Source of the DNA: a virus
Lineage: Duplodnaviria > Heunggongvirae > Uroviricota > Caudoviricetes
Reading direction: 5' to 3' (one strand)
DNA length: 64,000 bases
IMG/VR virus record: IMGVR_UViG_3300010370_000025
Each line of letters starts with the position of its first letter. Position 1 is the first letter of the stretch. Below are positions 100 to 36,398 of the stretch, in pieces. The position numbers and the translations under genes were made by a program. The notes beneath the pieces are model-generated. The model saw nothing but the letters and a program-made list of their open reading frames with translations. It had not been told where the DNA came from and made no database searches.

Positions 100-191
100 C
101 GAAGTGGGTGTTGGTACACAGGGAGGCCTTATAAACCTTTCAGCGCCGGATTAGCGTTCTCGACTCGGTTCGAATCCGAGCACTTCGACCA
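100..191 (+). tRNA. Atypical tRNA with UAU anticodon (nominally Ile) and a long variable arm
   Basis: Acceptor stem CGAAGTG(100-106)/CACTTCG(181-187), A73, encoded CCA 189-191; T-arm CTCGG-TTCGAAT-CCGAG (164-180); anticodon TAT at 130-132; variable-arm hairpin at about 142-158. Confidence 0.85.
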
Positions 192-4432: not shown

Positions 4433-4454
4433 CTTAACATACATCATTTATATC

Positions 4455-4482
4455 AGGGGGTAGAATTCTACCCCCTTTTTTT
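4455..4482 (+). terminator. Intrinsic terminator
   Basis: Perfect 22-bp palindrome AGGGGGTAGAATTCTACCCCCT followed by a T-run. Confidence 0.85.
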
Positions 4483-4486
4483 ATAT

Positions 4487-4494
4487 TATAAATA
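4487..4494 (+). promoter_or_regulatory. T4-type late promoter
   Basis: TATAAATA directly after the terminator and before SD AGGAG of ORF 4519. Confidence 0.8.
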
Positions 4495-8669: not shown

Positions 8670-8688
8670 TATAAATATAGTATAAATA
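8670..8688 (+). promoter_or_regulatory. Tandem T4-type late promoters
   Basis: TATAAATA at 8670-8677 and 8681-8688, upstream of SD GAGG. Confidence 0.75.
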
Positions 8689-22257: not shown

Positions 22258-22489
22258 AGAAGAACTAATCAACACACTTAAAGAACATAATGTTACTGTT
22301 AAATTTACTAAAATTGACGGTACGGAACGCTCTATGAAATGCACTCTTAGAGAAGATACGGTAATACCGTATGATAAGAAAACAGAAGTATCAAAAGCTA
22401 AGAACGATAATATCGTTTCTGTGTGGGATCTTGAAAAATCAGCTTGGCGCTCCTTTAGATATGACTCAGTCTTAGAAGTTTATAAATAG
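22241..22489 (+). CDS. Sm-like/WYL_2-type small protein conserved in T4-like phages
   Basis: VKFTKIDGTERSMKCTL...VWDLEKSAWRSFR. Confidence 0.8.
   Translation: MAIPSKEELINTLKEHNVTVKFTKIDGTERSMKCTLREDTVIPYDKKTEVSKAKNDNIVSVWDLEKSAWRSFRYDSVLEVYK
22481..22488 (+). promoter_or_regulatory. T4-type late promoter
   Basis: TATAAATA 27 nt upstream of the holin-like ATG (SD AGGAG). Confidence 0.7.
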
Positions 22490-28635: not shown

Positions 28636-29439
28636 ATGGAAAGACTAACCCGCGCTGAAAAAAGACTTTTAAGAGAACAAAAGCGTCAGGAGGCAAAAGA
28701 GCAAAAAAACTATCTTTCATTAAGATCCATTTCTCCAAAAACAAAAAATCAGGAGCAAGTATTTAGAGACTTTACAAATGGTAAAAATCTTTTCATCCAC
28801 GGACTACCAGGCACAGGTAAATCTTTCATATCACTTTATCTCGCACTAAATGAGCTTATAGAATACCATGAATATAAAAATATAGTAATTATTAGATCAG
28901 TAGTACCTACAAGAGACATGGGCTTCCTTCCAGGCTCAGTTAAAGACAAAGCTAAAGTTTATGAAGCTCCATATCAATCAATATGTACTGAGCTCTATGG
29001 AAGAAAAGACGCGTATGATATTTTAAAAGGTAAAGGTTTAGTAACTTTTGAGACATCATCATTCCTACGCGGTGTAACTTTTGATAATAGTATTGTTATT
29101 GTTGATGAATGTCAAAATATGACCTATCATGAACTAACAACAATTATTACTCGCGTAGGTAAAAATACCAAAATAGTTTTTAGTGGCGATTATAGACAAA
29201 CTGATCTATCATACGATGATGATAAGTCAGGGCTTAAAAACTTTATGAAAATTATCAACAAGATGCCAAAATATTTCTCTTGTATCGAATTTACAGAAGA
29301 TGATATCGTAAGATCAGGTCTTGTTAAAGAGTTTATTATTAAGAAAACACAACTTGAAGCAACAAATTTTAGAACACCAATCTTTACTTCAGGGCATTTT
29401 GCAGGAGCGGAAGCACTTCACGCTGCTCAAAAAGAATGA
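28636..29439 (+). CDS. phoH: PhoH-family ATPase
   Basis: GLPGTGKS, MGFLPGS, SFLRGVTF, IVDECQN, GDYRQTDL, DIVRSGLVK. Confidence 0.95.
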   Translation: MERLTRAEKRLLREQKRQEAKEQKNYLSLRSISPKTKNQEQVFRDFTNGKNLFIHGLPGTGKSFISLYLALNELIEYHEYKNIVIIRSVVPTRDMGFLPGSVKDKAKVYEAPYQSICTELYGRKDAYDILKGKGLVTFETSSFLRGVTFDNSIVIVDECQNMTYHELTTIITRVGKNTKIVFSGDYRQTDLSYDDDKSGLKNFMKIINKMPKYFSCIEFTEDDIVRSGLVKEFIIKKTQLEATNFRTPIFTSGHFAGAEALHAAQKE

Positions 29440-30085
29440 GCAGTACAAAGACGTATTGGAACAAGTAAATACAGATACCGGCAGGTATTACAAAACGCCT
29501 GCCGGTAAACTCTACCCTTCTGTAACAACGGTAACCGGTCTTTTAGGTGCTGATGCAATTAAAGAGTGGAGACTGCGCGTAGGTGAGGAAGAAGCTAATA
29601 GGATTAGTTCAACAGCTGCAAGACGTGGTACACGTATACACCAGTTGTGTGAAGATTATATTAACGGCAGTATTATAGATACTGCGAAGTATAACTTTAA
29701 TGATGCGTTTAATTTTAAACTTTTAAAACAAGTTATTGATAGTAATATCGACAACGTACATCTTCAAGAAGAAAGATTATATTCAGATTATCTTGAGATG
29801 GCAGGTACTGTAGACTGTGTAGCTGAGTATAATGGTAAATTAGCTATTGTTGATTTTAAAACAGCTCGCAAACTAAAAGATAAGAATTATATTACTAATT
29901 ATTTTTGCCAAGCAGCCGCTTATGCAATTATGTATGAAGAGCGTTTTAATATACCAGTATCGAGAATAGTTATTCTCATATCAGTCGATGATGAGCAACC
30001 ACAAATATTTGAAGAGCGCAGAGACAATTTTGTAAATAAACTGCTAGAAGTACGCAAAGAATACAAAATTAAATATGGCATTTAA
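29321..30085 (+). CDS. PD-(D/E)XK (Cas4-like) exonuclease
   Basis: YPSVTTV, RGTRIH, AGTVDCVAEY...IVDFKT, YFCQAAAYA; true start probably later (e.g. TTG at 29399). Confidence 0.9.
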   Translation: MLKSLLLRKHNLKQQILEHQSLLQGILQERKHFTLLKKNEQYKDVLEQVNTDTGRYYKTPAGKLYPSVTTVTGLLGADAIKEWRLRVGEEEANRISSTAARRGTRIHQLCEDYINGSIIDTAKYNFNDAFNFKLLKQVIDSNIDNVHLQEERLYSDYLEMAGTVDCVAEYNGKLAIVDFKTARKLKDKNYITNYFCQAAAYAIMYEERFNIPVSRIVILISVDDEQPQIFEERRDNFVNKLLEVRKEYKIKYGI

Positions 30086-30098
30086 TCAAAATATATAT

Positions 30099-30106
30099 TA
30101 TAAATA
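30099..30106 (+). promoter_or_regulatory. T4-type late promoter upstream of the tmRNA gene
   Basis: TATAAATA in the intergenic region. Confidence 0.7.
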
Positions 30107-30111
30107 AGATA

Positions 30112-30416
30112 CTATCGTTGACGGAAATCGAAAGACGATCTGGACCGGGGGGCGGTACCCCGCGCCTCCACCAAAGGTACACCGCGATAACTCGTTATAT
30201 CCGCACTAAGCGCTTAGTGACGCTAAAGGATGAACTCGGTGTATCTTTGATGGGGGCGAAACAGGATCGACAGGCGTGTAATAGGTAACTTGAGATAGTC
30301 GATTGGTCGCGTTATAGACCATTAATCTAAATGCAAACGATAATGTTGCATCTCGTTACGCCTTAGCGGCCTAACATGAGCTCGGTGGGAGCTTGGAAAC
30401 AGAATCCCACCACCTC
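30112..30416 (+). ncRNA. ssrA: Circularly permuted two-piece tmRNA; tag (A)NDNVASRYALAA
   Basis: Acceptor piece ends GGGGGCGGTACCCCGCGCCTCCA-CCA (30173); coding piece starts GGGGGCGAAACAGGATCGAC (30252); G3-U70 pair; tag frame 30333-30374 GCAAACGATAAT...GCGGCCTAA. Outer ends are approximate. Confidence 0.92.
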
Positions 30417-30437
30417 CCTTTTTAAAGTGCAGCATAA

Positions 30438-30674
30438 ATGAATATTCCTAAATTTAAAACCTCTGCGGATTTTGCTAAAGAGATAGAAAAAATATCGTCT
30501 TCAAAAAGTATTAGCTTTTTTGAAGCAGTTGTATTATATTGTGAAGTAAATAATATTGAAGTTGAAACAGCGGCTTCTATTATTAAACAAAGCACGTTCT
30601 TAAAGACAAAGATTCAACATGAGGCTGAAGATCTTAGATTAATGAAGAAGACAGGTGCAAGACTTCCAATATGA
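30438..30674 (+). CDS. gp33: Late-transcription coactivator (T4 gp33-like)
   Basis: EIEKI...ISFFEAVVLYCE.NNIEVETAA...LK.KI..EA..L; lies in the 33-59-32 synteny. Confidence 0.85.
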   Translation: MNIPKFKTSADFAKEIEKISSSKSISFFEAVVLYCEVNNIEVETAASIIKQSTFLKTKIQHEAEDLRLMKKTGARLPI

Positions 30675-31243
30675 CACCATTTGAAGCATATAAACTTTAT
30701 AATGCTATTAAGAACCACTTTACTACAGAATCTTACGACTACTTCAAATATAATGGTAAAGTGAGAGCATCAGAAAACACTTTTGAGACTCGTAAAGACA
30801 AATATCAATTTTATAAACTATCTAAGCATGAAGACCCTTTAACTTTTTTAGTTGCAAATTTATCAGAAAATCCTAAAATATGGGTAGGTGATTTGTTTAA
30901 TAGTGAGTATGAGTTAGTCTATAGTAAATACTTAAAACGTAAACAATCACTCTCGTATAACTTTCAAAATGATATCGGTAATATGTTAGAGAACTTTGAT
31001 AGTAATTTTGAAGTTCAATCTGGCAACTATCCTCACCTTCTTAATTTGCTTGTTCGTAATAAAATTACTAAAGAAACATTTATTATTATTAACGACTGTG
31101 TACGCTTCTTTGGTAAATGGAATAAACAAATTAACGATCCAGTTTTGTGGCCTACAATAGCACTTAACTGTAGAAAGCTTTATCCCTTCATGGATTATGA
31201 TAAAGCTAAATATTGTAGTATCTTGAGAGAAAAGTTCTCATGA
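30671..31243 (+). CDS. gp59: Helicase loader (T4 gp59-like)
   Basis: FEAYKLYNAIKNHFT...YDYFKYNGK...F..RKDKY.F.KL. Confidence 0.9.
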   Translation: MTPFEAYKLYNAIKNHFTTESYDYFKYNGKVRASENTFETRKDKYQFYKLSKHEDPLTFLVANLSENPKIWVGDLFNSEYELVYSKYLKRKQSLSYNFQNDIGNMLENFDSNFEVQSGNYPHLLNLLVRNKITKETFIIINDCVRFFGKWNKQINDPVLWPTIALNCRKLYPFMDYDKAKYCSILREKFS

Positions 31244-31249
31244 TATTAT

Positions 31250-31284
31250 ATACAACGTATACACTTATACATCGTCATACAACG
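31250..31284 (+). repeat. Four ATACA units in the gp32 leader
   Basis: ATACA at 31250, 31259, 31267 and 31277; the first and last extend to ATACAACG and abut SD GGAG. Confidence 0.8.
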
Positions 31285-31294
31285 GAGATTAGAT

Positions 31295-32221
31295 ATGGCA
31301 AGTAATTTTGAAGCCCTTAAGCAGAATCGTAAATCCTCTTTCGATAAGCTTACCTCTGAGCTTACCAAGCTCAAGTCAAATAATAACAATCAAGATAATT
31401 CTTCTGATGATCGTTTTTGGAAGCCTGATGTAGATAAGGCAGGTAACGGTTATGCAGTTATTCGTTTTCTTTCTGCACCAAAGAATGAAGATGTACCTTT
31501 CGTACGCATTTGGGATCATGGCTTTCAGGGCCCCGGCGGCTGGTATATTGAGAAGTCACTGACAACTCTCGGTAAGCCAGATCCACTGTCTGAGTATAAT
31601 ACTAAGCTTTGGAACTCTGGTATTGAGTCTAATAAAGATCTTGTACGTAAGCAGAAGCGTCGTCTTAGCTACTACTCTAATATTTACGTAGTTAAGGATC
31701 CTACTCGACCAGAAAATGACGGTAAGGTATTCCTATTCAAGTATGGTAAGAAGATCTTTGATAAGATCAACGAAGCTATGCACCCTCAGTATGAAGATGA
31801 GGCTGCTCTTAACCCGTTTGATCCTTGGGAGGGAGCCAACTTCAAGCTTAAGATTCGTAATGTAGAGGGCTATCGTAACTATGATAAGTCTGAATTTGAC
31901 TCACCTTCAGCTCTCTTTGATGATGATAGCGCTATTGAAAAGGTGTGGGAACAGCAGCACTCATTGCAAGAGCTTGTTGATCCAAAGCACTTTAAGTCAT
32001 ATGAAGAACTTAAGATGCGCCTTGAGAAAGCAATCGATCTTGCAGGTGCATCTGGATCTAACCGTAGTCATGCAGATCAAATGCTTGAGCAAGAAGAGGA
32101 GGCATTCCCGGTTCCTTCAAAGTCAGCTCCTATTAAGGAAGCACCTAAGCAGAGTGCTCCATGGGAAGAAGATGATGACGATGAACTTAGCTTCTTTAAG
32201 AAGCTTGCACAAGACAGCTAA
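31295..32221 (+). CDS. gp32: Single-stranded DNA-binding protein (T4 gp32-like)
   Basis: DDRFWKP..DKAGNGYAVIRFL, HGFQGPGGWYIEKSLTT, FKYGKKIFDKI, acidic tail. Confidence 0.97.
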   Translation: MASNFEALKQNRKSSFDKLTSELTKLKSNNNNQDNSSDDRFWKPDVDKAGNGYAVIRFLSAPKNEDVPFVRIWDHGFQGPGGWYIEKSLTTLGKPDPLSEYNTKLWNSGIESNKDLVRKQKRRLSYYSNIYVVKDPTRPENDGKVFLFKYGKKIFDKINEAMHPQYEDEAALNPFDPWEGANFKLKIRNVEGYRNYDKSEFDSPSALFDDDSAIEKVWEQQHSLQELVDPKHFKSYEELKMRLEKAIDLAGASGSNRSHADQMLEQEEEAFPVPSKSAPIKEAPKQSAPWEEDDDDELSFFKKLAQDS

Positions 32222-32224
32222 AAG

Positions 32225-32252
32225 AAACGGGGCGCAAGCCCCGTTTTTATTT
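32225..32252. terminator. Bidirectional intrinsic terminator between convergent blocks
   Basis: AAACGGGGC-GCAA-GCCCCGTTT with A-run and T-run flanks. Confidence 0.9.
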
Positions 32253-33622
32253 TATACAGATGCAAAATTATCTTGCGAGTATGTTCGAGAATCTGCAGGT
32301 GTTTTATACGCTACAGTTAACGTAGCACCTCTACCTCTGCCATCAGATGCAACTTGTGGCATAACTTGCTGAGCAGGTGCTTGTGGACCATTAATTACAA
32401 CAGGAGCTACTACAGTTTTAGTATTAGTAGCAGTTTCGAAAGATCTATCTCTTATAGACTGTGTAGAGGGTAATATATTGCCTGCACCTGGTTCTTGTAG
32501 TGTATCTCGAAGTGAGGATTGTTGTTCTATACCTCTCATCTCATCTTCTTGAGTTTCACCCTCGATAGGTTGCTCTATAGTTGCATCTTCATTAGCTGGT
32601 GAAGAAGCAGGAGGAGCAATAGTAGTAGGAGCCGCTGTACTGTTTTCTAACGTAGTTTCTTCTTGCCCTGGTTGAGGTGTTATATTAGGTGTAGCTGCAG
32701 GTGGTGTTGATGCTTCTGGCTGTGGTTGCTCAGTACCAGGAGCAGGAGGTGTTGCAGGTTGTCCGGGTTCTTGAGTAGTAGCAGGGGCTATACTTTTAAC
32801 TATTTCAGGTAGTGAATACAGTGTAGCGTTAGGATCAACTTCAACACCATTACTTCTAAGCCCTTCAACGAAAGTTTTTATGTTTTCGTTTTCTTCCATT
32901 GCTTTTTCTATTGGAGTCTCTAAGCTTACCGGCAGCCCGTAAGATTGATCAAATCTAGTTACTAAACTCTCAGCTGTTTTATATAAGTTAGATTCTTCTG
33001 GTTTAACTTGACCACTTTTTATCTCAGCTATAGAAGGGGTTATATTTTCTAAAGTTGCGTCAATATTTTCAACATCTTCTACATTATTGCTCAATAATCC
33101 AGCAGCAGCTCCAATACCTAAAGCAAGAGCTGTACCTAGACCAGCTGCTTTTAGTGCACCGCCTACAGTAGTTCTTATAAATCCTTGTCTTTGAGGTCTT
33201 TCAGCAGTAGCTGCAACATTACGATTTACTGTTGCTTGTCCGATAGCTAAACTTCTTATAGAAGATACTAGCGTACTTATAGTTCTTCTCATACTATCTA
33301 CTGAACTTACAATATAATCTAATTTTTCATCTGGTGTTCCACCTGATACCATAGGTGATATAACACCAGAAGCTCCCATGTTTAATTGCTGGATAGGAGT
33401 TACATTAGGGCTTACTTCTGGCTCTTCAATATTTAATTGTTGCTCTTCTTCACCATCTTGACCTTGCTGGTTTTGCTGGCCATTCAATGCATTAGCTAAC
33501 AGCCCACCGCCAGTAGCAGCCCCTCCTAAACCAAACATCCTCTTGAGATTCTGCCAGCCTCCTTTAAGCATTCTGCCGCCAGCCCCAAATAATCTAGCCC
33601 CTAATCCAGCTAATCCTTGCAT
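32252..33622 (-). CDS. Probable tail tape-measure/baseplate hub subunit (T4 gp29 position)
   Basis: Follows gp26-gp51; Gly/Ala-rich helices, a hydrophobic segment and low-complexity linkers; no catalytic motif seen. Confidence 0.5.
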   Translation of the reverse strand: MQGLAGLGARLFGAGGRMLKGGWQNLKRMFGLGGAATGGGLLANALNGQQNQQGQDGEEEQQLNIEEPEVSPNVTPIQQLNMGASGVISPMVSGGTPDEKLDYIVSSVDSMRRTISTLVSSIRSLAIGQATVNRNVAATAERPQRQGFIRTTVGGALKAAGLGTALALGIGAAAGLLSNNVEDVENIDATLENITPSIAEIKSGQVKPEESNLYKTAESLVTRFDQSYGLPVSLETPIEKAMEENENIKTFVEGLRSNGVEVDPNATLYSLPEIVKSIAPATTQEPGQPATPPAPGTEQPQPEASTPPAATPNITPQPGQEETTLENSTAAPTTIAPPASSPANEDATIEQPIEGETQEDEMRGIEQQSSLRDTLQEPGAGNILPSTQSIRDRSFETATNTKTVVAPVVINGPQAPAQQVMPQVASDGRGRGATLTVAYKTPADSRTYSQDNFASV

Positions 33623-35429: not shown

Positions 35430-35915
35430 TTATTTTGTAACAAATTCTGCTAGTGGTAAACTCATAGCATAGTTCCATTCTTTAGGAGGAATTAAAAGAA
35501 ATCGAGATCTCACATGACCATACAAATATCTATGCAATGTTTTATCAAAATATTTATACTTAGCAGAACCATTTAATATTTGATATGATAAAGCTATTTT
35601 AGTAGTTTCATCATATTGTGAATTTGTTCTTAAATCTCTTAAAGAATTCATTAATGACATTCTTTGTAAAGGATTTAAATAATGCATATTCATTCCTAGA
35701 AAAGAAGATCCGTCTGAATTTATAGGAAAAACTAGAGGATACTTGTCATAGATAGGTAGAATATTTTTAAATTTAGGATCGTAAACAAACAAATATAAAC
35801 TGCCAGGAACAATACTAGAAACAGTATTATTACTAGCGCCAGAAATTAATGCAGGAGCAGATGCTGCTTCTATTACTTTTTCTCTAAACCAATTTTTTGT
35901 GTTTTCATCAGCCAT
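35430..35915 (-). CDS. gp2: DNA end protector (gp2-like)
   Basis: YDPKFKNILPIYDKYPL, FLGMNMHYL, RYLYGHVRSRF..IP..EW. Confidence 0.9.
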   Translation of the reverse strand: MADENTKNWFREKVIEAASAPALISGASNNTVSSIVPGSLYLFVYDPKFKNILPIYDKYPLVFPINSDGSSFLGMNMHYLNPLQRMSLMNSLRDLRTNSQYDETTKIALSYQILNGSAKYKYFDKTLHRYLYGHVRSRFLLIPPKEWNYAMSLPLAEFVTK

Positions 35916-36370: not shown

Positions 36371-36398
36371 TATAAATATAACAGTATAAGTATTTATC
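36371..36398. promoter_or_regulatory. Divergent late-promoter pair
   Basis: TATAAATA (+, 36371-36378) toward gp48; GATAAATA (-, 36391-36398) toward gp4. Confidence 0.6.

What the first reader, a model, noticed from the sequence alone, without database searches (positions are those of the whole stretch)
30099..30416. Phage-encoded circularly permuted two-piece tmRNA under a late promoter
Seen: the 3' (acceptor) piece with CCA comes first, then a 78-nt intervening segment, then the 5' piece GGGGGCG pairing with CGCCTCC including the G3-U70 alanine determinant, and the tag ANDNVASRYALAA-stop. TATAAATA sits just upstream. Established: this permuted architecture and the GGCGGTAC T-loop variant are the alphaproteobacterial form; tmRNA needs SmpB, RNase P and ClpXP, and in Caulobacter it affects replication timing. 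Inference: the phage supplies its own ribosome rescue late in infection, countering mRNA/tRNA-cleaving defences or stalling on its rare codons, possibly with altered tag proteolysis.
Basis: partly seen in the sequence, partly recalled or inferred. Interest (0 to 1): 0.8.

Follow-up and report, generated by a model that had tools for sequence, protein, structure and literature searches.

The report
Phage-encoded two-piece tmRNA gene
An uncultured T4-like aquatic phage carries a complete, rearranged ("two-piece") gene for tmRNA, the RNA that frees stalled ribosomes; the gene is real, but the same gene at the same spot is already published for related phages, so it is a new example of a known thing.

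Summary
Window 30111-30415 (+) holds a complete circularly permuted alpha-type tmRNA gene (Rfam alpha_tmRNA 126.5 bits, E 4e-34; tmRNA_permuted 115.7 bits).

It lies between a PDDEXK nuclease gene and gp33-gp59-gp32 of a T4-like myovirus. This is the locus where OM43 phage Melnitz (annotated SsrA; PMC9004378) and Pelagibacter phage HTVC008M carry theirs. Of 69 related viral contigs with enough upstream DNA, 42 have a tmRNA call beside gp33/gp59.

The late-promoter reading is plausible. In this window TATAAATA marks late genes and lacks a -35 element. In 18 of 21 related lineages, though, the same octamer also has a TTGAY -35, so expression is probably not late-only.

The tag ends in the canonical YALAA, so altered proteolysis is not supported. 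No smpB is present, so host SmpB is needed. Between near-identical strains the spacer is swapped wholesale while both RNA pieces stay about 99% identical.

Earlier agents of this scan found phage two-piece tmRNAs on other DNA. Verdict: new member of a known kind, with modest interest.

The parts
30099..30106 (+). TATAAATA, the T4-type late-promoter octamer (also a sigma-70 -10-like TATAAA); no convincing -35 in this strain (best ATGGCA, 4 of 6, at 18 nt)
   Evidence: The octamer is conserved at -36 to -50 from TCTGGAC in 21 of 40 distinct upstream sequences. The block conserved with L036 starts just upstream of it.
30111..30173 (+). Acceptor piece (the 3' part of a standard tmRNA): 5' strand of the long P2 helix, T arm 30146-30162 (loop GGCGGTA), acceptor 3' strand 30163-30169, discriminator A 30170, encoded CCA 30171-30173
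   Evidence: Rfam alignments; sequence; fold. The 5' end is predicted from the model start and the promoter distance, not measured.
30174..30251 (+). 78-nt intervening segment (spacer), predicted to be cut out. It folds into a hairpin that extends the acceptor stem and ends in TGAT before G1. It holds no ORF.
   Evidence: Fold -22.8 kcal/mol, z -2.75; with T arm and acceptor stem z -4.43. It is replaced by unrelated sequence in L036 and in metagenome contigs.
30252..30415 (+). Coding piece (the 5' part of a standard tmRNA): acceptor 5' strand GGGGGCG 30252-30258, P2 3' strand, tag frame, terminal hairpin 30378-30415
30333..30374 (+). Tag reading frame: resume codon GCA, peptide ANDNVASRYALAA, stop TAA
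   Evidence: ARAGORN -ps90; sequence
30418..30422 (+). U-run two bases after the terminal hairpin: a weak, terminator-like end, 16 nt before the gp33 start codon
   Evidence: The consensus terminator scan did not call it.
28636..29439 (+). PhoH-like gene, upstream neighbour in the conserved locus
   Evidence: phrog_170, E 1e-82
29321..30085 (+). PDDEXK/Cas4-like exonuclease gene (start codon uncertain); its stop lies 13 nt before TATAAATA
   Evidence: phrog_298, E 8e-70
30438..30674 (+). gp33 late-transcription coactivator gene, directly downstream
   Evidence: phrog_254, E 4.5e-17
30671..31243 (+). gp59 helicase-loader gene
   Evidence: phrog_269, E 2e-52
31295..32221 (+). gp32 single-strand DNA-binding protein gene
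   Evidence: phrog_224, E 1e-116

Best explanation
This is a functional, phage-encoded, circularly permuted (two-piece) tmRNA gene of the alphaproteobacterial type. It is an ortholog of the ssrA genes already described in OM43 phage Melnitz and Pelagibacter phage HTVC008M. Shown here: the gene is complete and fits the family model. It sits at a conserved locus (PhoH, PDDEXK nuclease, tmRNA, gp33, gp59, gp32) of an aquatic T4-like myovirus. Both RNA pieces are conserved while the spacer is not. Inferred from established tmRNA biology: a precursor starts a few bases after TATAAATA, or arises by read-through from the nuclease gene. It folds so that the spacer hairpin extends the acceptor stem. 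Host RNase P cuts before G1 (30252) and other host nucleases remove the spacer, leaving the encoded CCA end. The two pieces stay joined by the 7-bp acceptor stem and the long P2 helix. Host AlaRS charges it through G3-U70. Host SmpB and EF-Tu deliver it to ribosomes stalled on broken mRNAs. Translation resumes at GCA and adds ANDNVASRYALAA, whose YALAA end marks the product for host ClpXP-type proteolysis. The likely benefit is to keep ribosomes free during infection, when mRNA breakage is heavy. My odds: real complete tmRNA gene 0.97; acts in trans-translation 0.75; transcribed from the TATAAATA site 0.7; late-only 0.3.
For: Rfam RF01849 126.5 bits and RF04321 115.7 bits, both full length. 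ARAGORN -ps90 gives the same tag. All determinants are present in the sequence: acceptor stem with G3-U70, discriminator A, CCA, T arm, Ala resume codon, in-frame stop, YALAA end. The precursor fold has z -4.43. Phage context is T4-like on both sides. The locus is the same in Melnitz, where it is annotated SsrA, and in HTVC008M, where it is unannotated, 83.8 bits. Of 84 loci with the acceptor motif, 65 carry at least one of the five flanking genes. All 20 lineage representatives tested pass both Rfam models at 92-175 bits. Of 69 gp59-homolog loci with enough upstream DNA, 42 have a tmRNA call. Against L036, both pieces are about 99% identical while the spacer cannot be aligned. The outer P2 helix changes sequence but keeps pairing between lineages: ACTATC/GATAGT here, ACAATT/AATTGT in Melnitz, ACCGTC/GACGGT in L007. 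No SmpB was found in three complete tmRNA-bearing phage genomes or in this window. For the promoter, 4 of 9 TATAAATA sites lie in the 5% non-coding DNA and 6 of 9 lie 25-73 nt before a same-strand ORF start, including baseplate and tail genes. Published precedent: PMC9004378.
Against: There is no expression, processing, charging or tagging evidence for this RNA or for any phage two-piece tmRNA. My statistical covariation tests were weak (p 0.01-0.04). Acceptor-stem conservation across the fetched loci follows from the search pattern, so it is not independent evidence. The host is unknown, and the Melnitz precedent shows the host need not be an alphaproteobacterium, so compatibility with host SmpB and AlaRS is assumed. 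TATAAATA is not enriched overall in this AT-rich window (9 found against 15 expected). Only its placement and conservation argue for function.
Confidence: 0.78

Rival explanations
1. On timing: the tmRNA is not a late-only RNA. It is made early or throughout infection, from a host sigma-70 promoter in most relatives, and here by read-through from the nuclease gene as well as from TATAAATA.
For: Of 21 related lineages with TATAAATA, 18 also carry TTGAY at 16-18 nt, often with TG before the -10. The Melnitz authors call it an early promoter. gp33 starts 23 nt after the tmRNA hairpin with no evident promoter of its own (no strong sigma-70 consensus), yet late transcription needs gp33, so some non-late transcription probably crosses the tmRNA gene. 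The terminal hairpin is only weakly terminator-like.
Against: This strain lacks a -35 (best 4 of 6 at 18 nt) and looks like the window's other late promoters, none of which has a -35. The conserved octamer is TATAAATA rather than TATAAT, with A in place of the T at -7 that sigma-70 promoters usually have.
Confidence: 0.45
2. The RNA acts as a decoy or re-director. It either titrates host SmpB to shut down host trans-translation, or it preferentially tags host proteins so that their amino acids are recycled.
For: A tRNA-like-domain-only tmRNA in mycobacteriophage DS6A, and the reported inhibition of tmRNA by such molecules, are noted in PMC4131195. The Melnitz authors propose selective tagging of host proteins. 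The phage supplies no SmpB of its own.
Against: The gene keeps every part needed for full trans-translation, not only the tRNA-like domain. Tag frame, resume context and LAA/IAA ends are kept in nearly all lineages. tmRNA has no known means of choosing host over phage nascent chains.
Confidence: 0.1
3. It is a passive remnant: a host ssrA captured by accident, or an attP-like integration target, with no role in infection.
For: ssrA is a common integration site, and fragments of it occur in prophages (PMC9004378; PMC4131195).
Against: The gene is full length. It sits in a lytic-type T4-like genome at a fixed locus in many lineages with G+C from 0.32 to 0.57. The pieces are conserved while the spacer is free to change. 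In 401 sampled alphaproteobacterial genomes only 30-50 nt conserved cores match, so there is no sign of recent capture. PHROG searches of 40 larger ORFs in the window gave no integrase annotation.
Confidence: 0.04
4. It is host DNA joined to phage DNA by misassembly.
For: The window comes from a metagenome assembly.
Against: The same junctions occur in cultured isolates Melnitz and HTVC008M, in L036 and dozens of independent IMG/VR contigs, and in contigs of other runs that bridge the tmRNA and its flanks.
Confidence: 0.01

Closest known systems
ssrA (two-piece tmRNA) of Methylophilales (OM43) phage Melnitz, MZ577097 (Buchholz et al. 2022, PMC9004378)
   Same: Alpha-type permuted tmRNA. Same locus: PhoH, PDDEXK nuclease, tmRNA, gp33, gp59, then gp32. 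TATAAATA sits at the same distance upstream. The tag starts ANDN and ends YALAA.
   Different: About 72% identity over 65% of the gene. Melnitz has a 142-nt spacer, a consensus TTGACA -35, two small genes between the nuclease gene and the tmRNA, and a glutamine riboswitch (RF01739, 52.8 bits) at the 3' end. This window lacks that riboswitch.
tmRNA of Pelagibacter phage HTVC008M, NC_020484 (listed as permuted, no riboswitch, in Suppl. Table 1 of PMC9004378)
   Same: Same phage family (Kyanoviridae-like T4-like) and same locus upstream of gp33. Permuted, no riboswitch, tag ends YALAA.
   Different: More divergent: 83.8 bits, a different T loop, tag ANFNEYALAA, no TATAAATA upstream. It is unannotated in RefSeq and overlapped by a 'hypothetical protein'.
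Bacterial two-piece tmRNA of Alphaproteobacteria (Caulobacter; Rfam RF01849; Keiler, Shapiro and Williams 2000, as cited in PMC9004378)
   Same: Permuted order, T-loop variant GGCgGUA, acceptor stem with G3-U70, ANDN...AA tag, P2 helix joining the two pieces.
   Different: Carried by a virus with no smpB beside it. In 401 sampled alphaproteobacterial genomes only the 30-50 nt conserved cores match at the DNA level.
Other phage tmRNAs: one-piece in mycobacteriophages of the Bxz1 group and Bacillus phage G (PMC4131195); permuted in phiCbK-like Caulobacter phages and roseophage DSS3_MAL1 (PMC9004378 Table S1)
   Same: A large lytic phage carrying its own tmRNA without SmpB.
   Different: Different phage families and loci. 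In DSS3_MAL1 the gene lies in a tRNA cluster. The mycobacteriophage and Bacillus examples are one-piece.

Membership tests
Alpha-type circularly permuted tmRNA (Rfam RF01849 / RF04321) | Score at or above the curated gathering threshold over the full model | tested here: met
   126.5 bits against 50, and 115.7 bits against 47, both spanning model first to last position
Alpha-type circularly permuted tmRNA (Rfam RF01849 / RF04321) | Gene order: acceptor (3') piece with CCA, then intervening segment, then coding (5') piece | tested here: met
   CCA 30171-30173, spacer 30174-30251, G1 at 30252
Alpha-type circularly permuted tmRNA (Rfam RF01849 / RF04321) | tRNA-Ala-like domain: 7-bp acceptor stem with G3-U70, discriminator A, T arm of 5 bp with a 7-nt loop | tested here: met
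   GGGGGCG pairs with CGCCTCC; T arm CGGGG/CCCCG with loop GGCGGTA
Alpha-type circularly permuted tmRNA (Rfam RF01849 / RF04321) | Tag frame with alanine resume codon, in-frame stop and hydrophobic (L/V/I)AA end | tested here: met
   GCA ... TAA encoding ANDNVASRYALAA
Alpha-type circularly permuted tmRNA (Rfam RF01849 / RF04321) | P2 helix joining the 5' end of the acceptor piece to the coding piece, kept by compensatory change | tested here: inconclusive
   The inner helix is recovered by RNAalifold. The outer helix differs in sequence but pairs in each lineage. My cognate-versus-non-cognate tests gave only p 0.01-0.04.
Alpha-type circularly permuted tmRNA (Rfam RF01849 / RF04321) | Precursor is processed into two RNAs; charged with alanine; binds SmpB | not testable with these tools
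   No usable RNA data; needs bench work
ssrA locus of Melnitz-like phages and pelagimyophages (T4-like) | Lies between the PDDEXK nuclease gene and gp33-gp59 of a T4-like myovirus | tested here: met
ssrA locus of Melnitz-like phages and pelagimyophages (T4-like) | Glutamine riboswitch at the 3' end (present in Melnitz and Mosig only, so not defining) | tested here: not met
   No RF01739 match at E up to 10 in 29000-31500. Among 20 relatives it was found only in Melnitz.
T4-type late promoter | TATAAATA at -10 without a -35 element, used before late genes of the same phage | tested here: met
   Octamer at 30099-30106. The other eight sites have no -35 (scores 1-3 of 6), and most precede late or structural genes.
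T4-type late promoter | Transcription start depends on gp55/gp33/clamp, late in infection | not testable with these tools
   Relatives add a sigma-70 -35, so the timing remains open

The most novel reading that the evidence does not exclude
The tmRNA gene may be a fixed, ancient part of the gp33-gp59-gp32 control module of aquatic T4-like phages. On this reading it is driven by a hybrid promoter that both host sigma-70 and the phage late sigma can read. Its spacer is a freely swappable cassette.
Probability: 0.3. Interest if true: 0.5.

Novelty: new member of a known kind. Interest (0 to 1): 0.27.

Why it matters
Phage tmRNAs are common in aquatic T4-like phages, yet none has been tested for function. 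It is not known whether they rescue ribosomes, redirect proteolysis or block the host system. This copy adds a clean, riboswitch-free example with a late-type promoter, and a natural pair of strains that differ only in the spacer. Because ARAGORN misses it at default settings, surveys that rely on ARAGORN probably undercount these genes. It does not open a new question, and its phage is uncultured.

Tried and rejected
1. The window's own assembly is not held, and the nearest held virus record (G001, 21.9 kb, 13% complete) has no tmRNA match. This is uninformative.

2. RNA evidence. No RNA holder was listed for the tmRNA itself. One metatranscriptomic library (X24) has contigs identical to the flanking genes but none over 29660-30514. 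A part without cover is no evidence either way.

3. Covariation by duplex energies and by longest-pairing counts, cognate against non-cognate, gave only weak signals (p 0.02, 0.04, 0.013).

4. Host tmRNA. A BLAST over 401 sampled alphaproteobacterial genomes gave only 30-50 nt core matches. No host or donor was identified. One sampled genome (G044) is flagged unpublished, and only the aggregate tally touches it.

5. The megablast search of the 18-kb neighbourhood against GenBank phages gave only short cyanophage hits.

6. PMC16621 and PMC516066, the primary two-piece tmRNA papers, are not held. Statements on processing rest on established knowledge and on their citation in PMC9004378.

7. 'Altered tag proteolysis' is rejected because the tag ends in YALAA.

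8. The spurious 56-aa ORF at 30118-30288 inside the gene was ignored.

Full report
**Observation.** Rfam (cmscan, gathering thresholds) reports alpha_tmRNA RF01849 at 30065-30414 (+), 126.5 bits against a cut-off of 50, E 4.2e-34, over the full model. It also reports tmRNA_permuted RF04321 at 30111-30374, 115.7 bits against 47.
- TATAAATA at 30099-30106
- T arm at 30146-30162 with loop GGCGGTA
- acceptor 3' strand CGCCTCC at 30163-30169, discriminator A at 30170, encoded CCA at 30171-30173
- a spacer of exactly 78 nt at 30174-30251
- GGGGGCG at 30252-30258, giving a 7-bp acceptor stem with G3-U70
- a tag frame from GCA at 30333 to TAA at 30372-30374, encoding ANDNVASRYALAA

ARAGORN misses the gene at default settings. 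With the threshold lowered to 90% it calls a permuted tmRNA with the same tag.

**Precursor shape.** The spacer alone folds into a long hairpin (-22.8 kcal/mol, z -2.75). Together with the T arm and acceptor stem, the fold has z -4.43, and none of 200 shuffles folds as well. So the spacer hairpin stacks on the acceptor stem, as expected for a permuted pre-tmRNA.

**Context.** The window is a T4-like myovirus with about 34% G+C. Upstream lie a PhoH-like gene and a PDDEXK/Cas4-like exonuclease gene. Directly downstream lie gp33 (late-transcription coactivator), gp59 and gp32. The rest of the window holds replication genes and a baseplate/tail module. The tmRNA gene fills the 352-nt gap between the nuclease stop (30085) and the gp33 start (30438).

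**It is already known.**
[quoted passage not shown] It reports permuted tmRNAs in 17 of 47 related contigs. It lists HTVC008M, Mosig, phiCbK-like phages and DSS3_MAL1 among 53 phages with permuted tmRNAs.
- The Melnitz GenBank record annotates SsrA between the PDDEXK nuclease gene and the late-transcription coactivator gene.
- HTVC008M has an unannotated copy (RF01849, 83.8 bits) at the same locus.
- One-piece tmRNAs in mycobacteriophages and Bacillus phage G were catalogued in 2014 (PMC4131195).
- Earlier agents of this scan also reported phage two-piece tmRNAs on other DNA.

**How widespread.**
- A scan of IMG/VR for the alpha-type acceptor motif found 83 stretches. Together with the Melnitz locus these give 84 loci, of which 65 carry at least one of the five flanking genes, mostly in the same order. 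Contig G+C ranges from 0.32 to 0.57.
- All 20 lineage representatives pass both Rfam models at 92-175 bits.
- Starting instead from gp59 homologs, 42 of the 69 loci with at least 1200 nt of upstream DNA have a tmRNA call there.
- L036 is a near-identical strain of this phage (gp33 100%, gp32 99%).

**Promoter.** TATAAATA is not enriched in this AT-rich window overall (9 sites against 15 expected), but its placement is far from random. The window is 95% coding, yet 4 of 9 sites are intergenic. Six of 9 lie 25-73 nt before a same-strand ORF start, including the gp48-like baseplate gene and a tail-tube-like gene. None of these sites has a -35 element. The tmRNA site looks like them and lies 5 nt before the Rfam model start.

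Across 40 distinct upstream sequences of relatives, 21 keep TATAAATA at the same distance. Of those 21, 18 also carry TTGAY at 16-18 nt, often with TG before the -10. That is a strong sigma-70 promoter whose -10 doubles as the late octamer. The Melnitz authors call it early. The window's strain has lost or never had the -35: against L036, sequence identity starts just upstream of the octamer.

gp33 begins 23 nt after the tmRNA hairpin with no evident promoter of its own (no strong sigma-70 consensus), and late transcription needs gp33. So some non-late transcription probably crosses the tmRNA gene. I therefore rate 'transcribed from this site' at about 0.7 and 'late only' at about 0.3.

**Spacer.** Between the window and L036, both RNA pieces are about 99% identical (three changes), while the spacer (78 nt against 86 nt) cannot be aligned. 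Each spacer still closes with a basal stem of about 10 bp. Contigs from a reservoir run and a 'marine' run carry the L036-type spacer (70 letters replaced by 78). In the marine run's contig, 196 letters also stand in place of 41 upstream of the promoter. Spacer length across lineages runs from about 30 to 190 nt. This agrees with earlier notes of this scan that the spacer is swapped as a unit. Here it is too short to hold a gene.

**Tag.** Tags in the relatives vary in the middle, but nearly all start ANDN and end LAA or IAA. This one ends YALAA, the same end as the E. coli tag (established knowledge). Nothing suggests altered proteolysis.

**Host factors.** No SmpB (PF01668) was found in the complete genomes of HTVC008M, Melnitz and DSS3_MAL1. 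Three alphaproteobacterial SmpB proteins gave no tblastn hit in this window. The RNA must therefore use host SmpB, AlaRS, EF-Tu, RNase P and proteases.

In one complete relative that also has a tmRNA (G406), I found a 42-codon ORF with the ArfA-like KGKGSY motif (23.6 bits, below the Pfam cut-off of 25.5). HTVC008M and Melnitz have none.

**Origin and host.** In 401 sampled alphaproteobacterial genomes only the 30-50 nt conserved cores match, so there is no sign of recent capture from a sampled host. The stretch, or close variants of it, occurs in reservoir, lake, groundwater, estuary and 'marine' metagenomes. That points to a fresh-to-brackish distribution. The host is unknown, and Melnitz shows that an alpha-type tmRNA does not prove an alphaproteobacterial host.

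**Verdict.** The finding is a new member of a published kind. The modest additions here are these:
- the late-type, -35-less promoter in this strain, against hybrid promoters in relatives
- the wholesale spacer swap between near-identical strains
- the high prevalence at this locus
- the default ARAGORN miss

Noticed in passing
window 100-191: ARAGORN calls a 92-nt tRNA-Ile(tat) here. Rfam's tRNA model gives no match even at E up to 1. It is probably a false call or a very odd tRNA-like RNA. The tRNA-Arg(TCT) at 928-1004 is solid (64.3 bits).
   Followed up: partly
window 30174-30243 and 30053-30093; L036:4229-4314: Other strains of this phage in reservoir and 'marine' metagenomes carry an unrelated 78-letter replacement of the spacer. 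One marine contig also has 196 letters in place of 41 just upstream of the promoter, and a reservoir contig's loose end there reads the L036-type TTGATT -35.
   Followed up: partly
window 4450-4494, 8670-8688, 22481-22488, 35551-35558 (-), 36371-36378: TATAAATA sites lie 25-73 nt before same-strand ORF starts, and none has a -35. The one at 4487 directly follows a G+C-rich hairpin with a T-run, so a terminator is followed by a late promoter. No TTGAC[AT]-N16-18-TAWAAT sigma-70 consensus occurs anywhere in the 64 kb.
   Followed up: partly
L224:1459-1587 (virus record G406, 167,756 bp, terminal repeats): A 42-codon ORF with an ArfA-like KGKGSY motif (PF03889, 23.6 bits, just under the cut-off) occurs in a complete relative that also carries a tmRNA (L055). 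HTVC008M and Melnitz have none.
   Followed up: partly
L305:2604-2915 (HTVC008M 145103-145414): The HTVC008M tmRNA is not annotated in the RefSeq record, and its start is overlapped by 'hypothetical protein' I899_gp194. Its tag reads ANFNEYALAA.
   Followed up: yes
L001:4358-4406 (Melnitz): The glutamine riboswitch aptamer (RF01739, 52.8 bits) lies directly 3' of the Melnitz tmRNA, as published. It is absent from the other 19 lineage representatives and from this window.
   Followed up: yes
window 32252-33622 (-): A 456-aa ORF between gp32 and the baseplate-hub gene has no PHROG match at E up to 0.001.
   Followed up: no
window 29900-30700: Runs holding this stretch or close variants are mostly reservoir, lake, groundwater and estuary metagenomes, plus two labelled marine. 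Laid contigs from a reservoir, a lake and a marine run match at 90-100%.
   Followed up: partly
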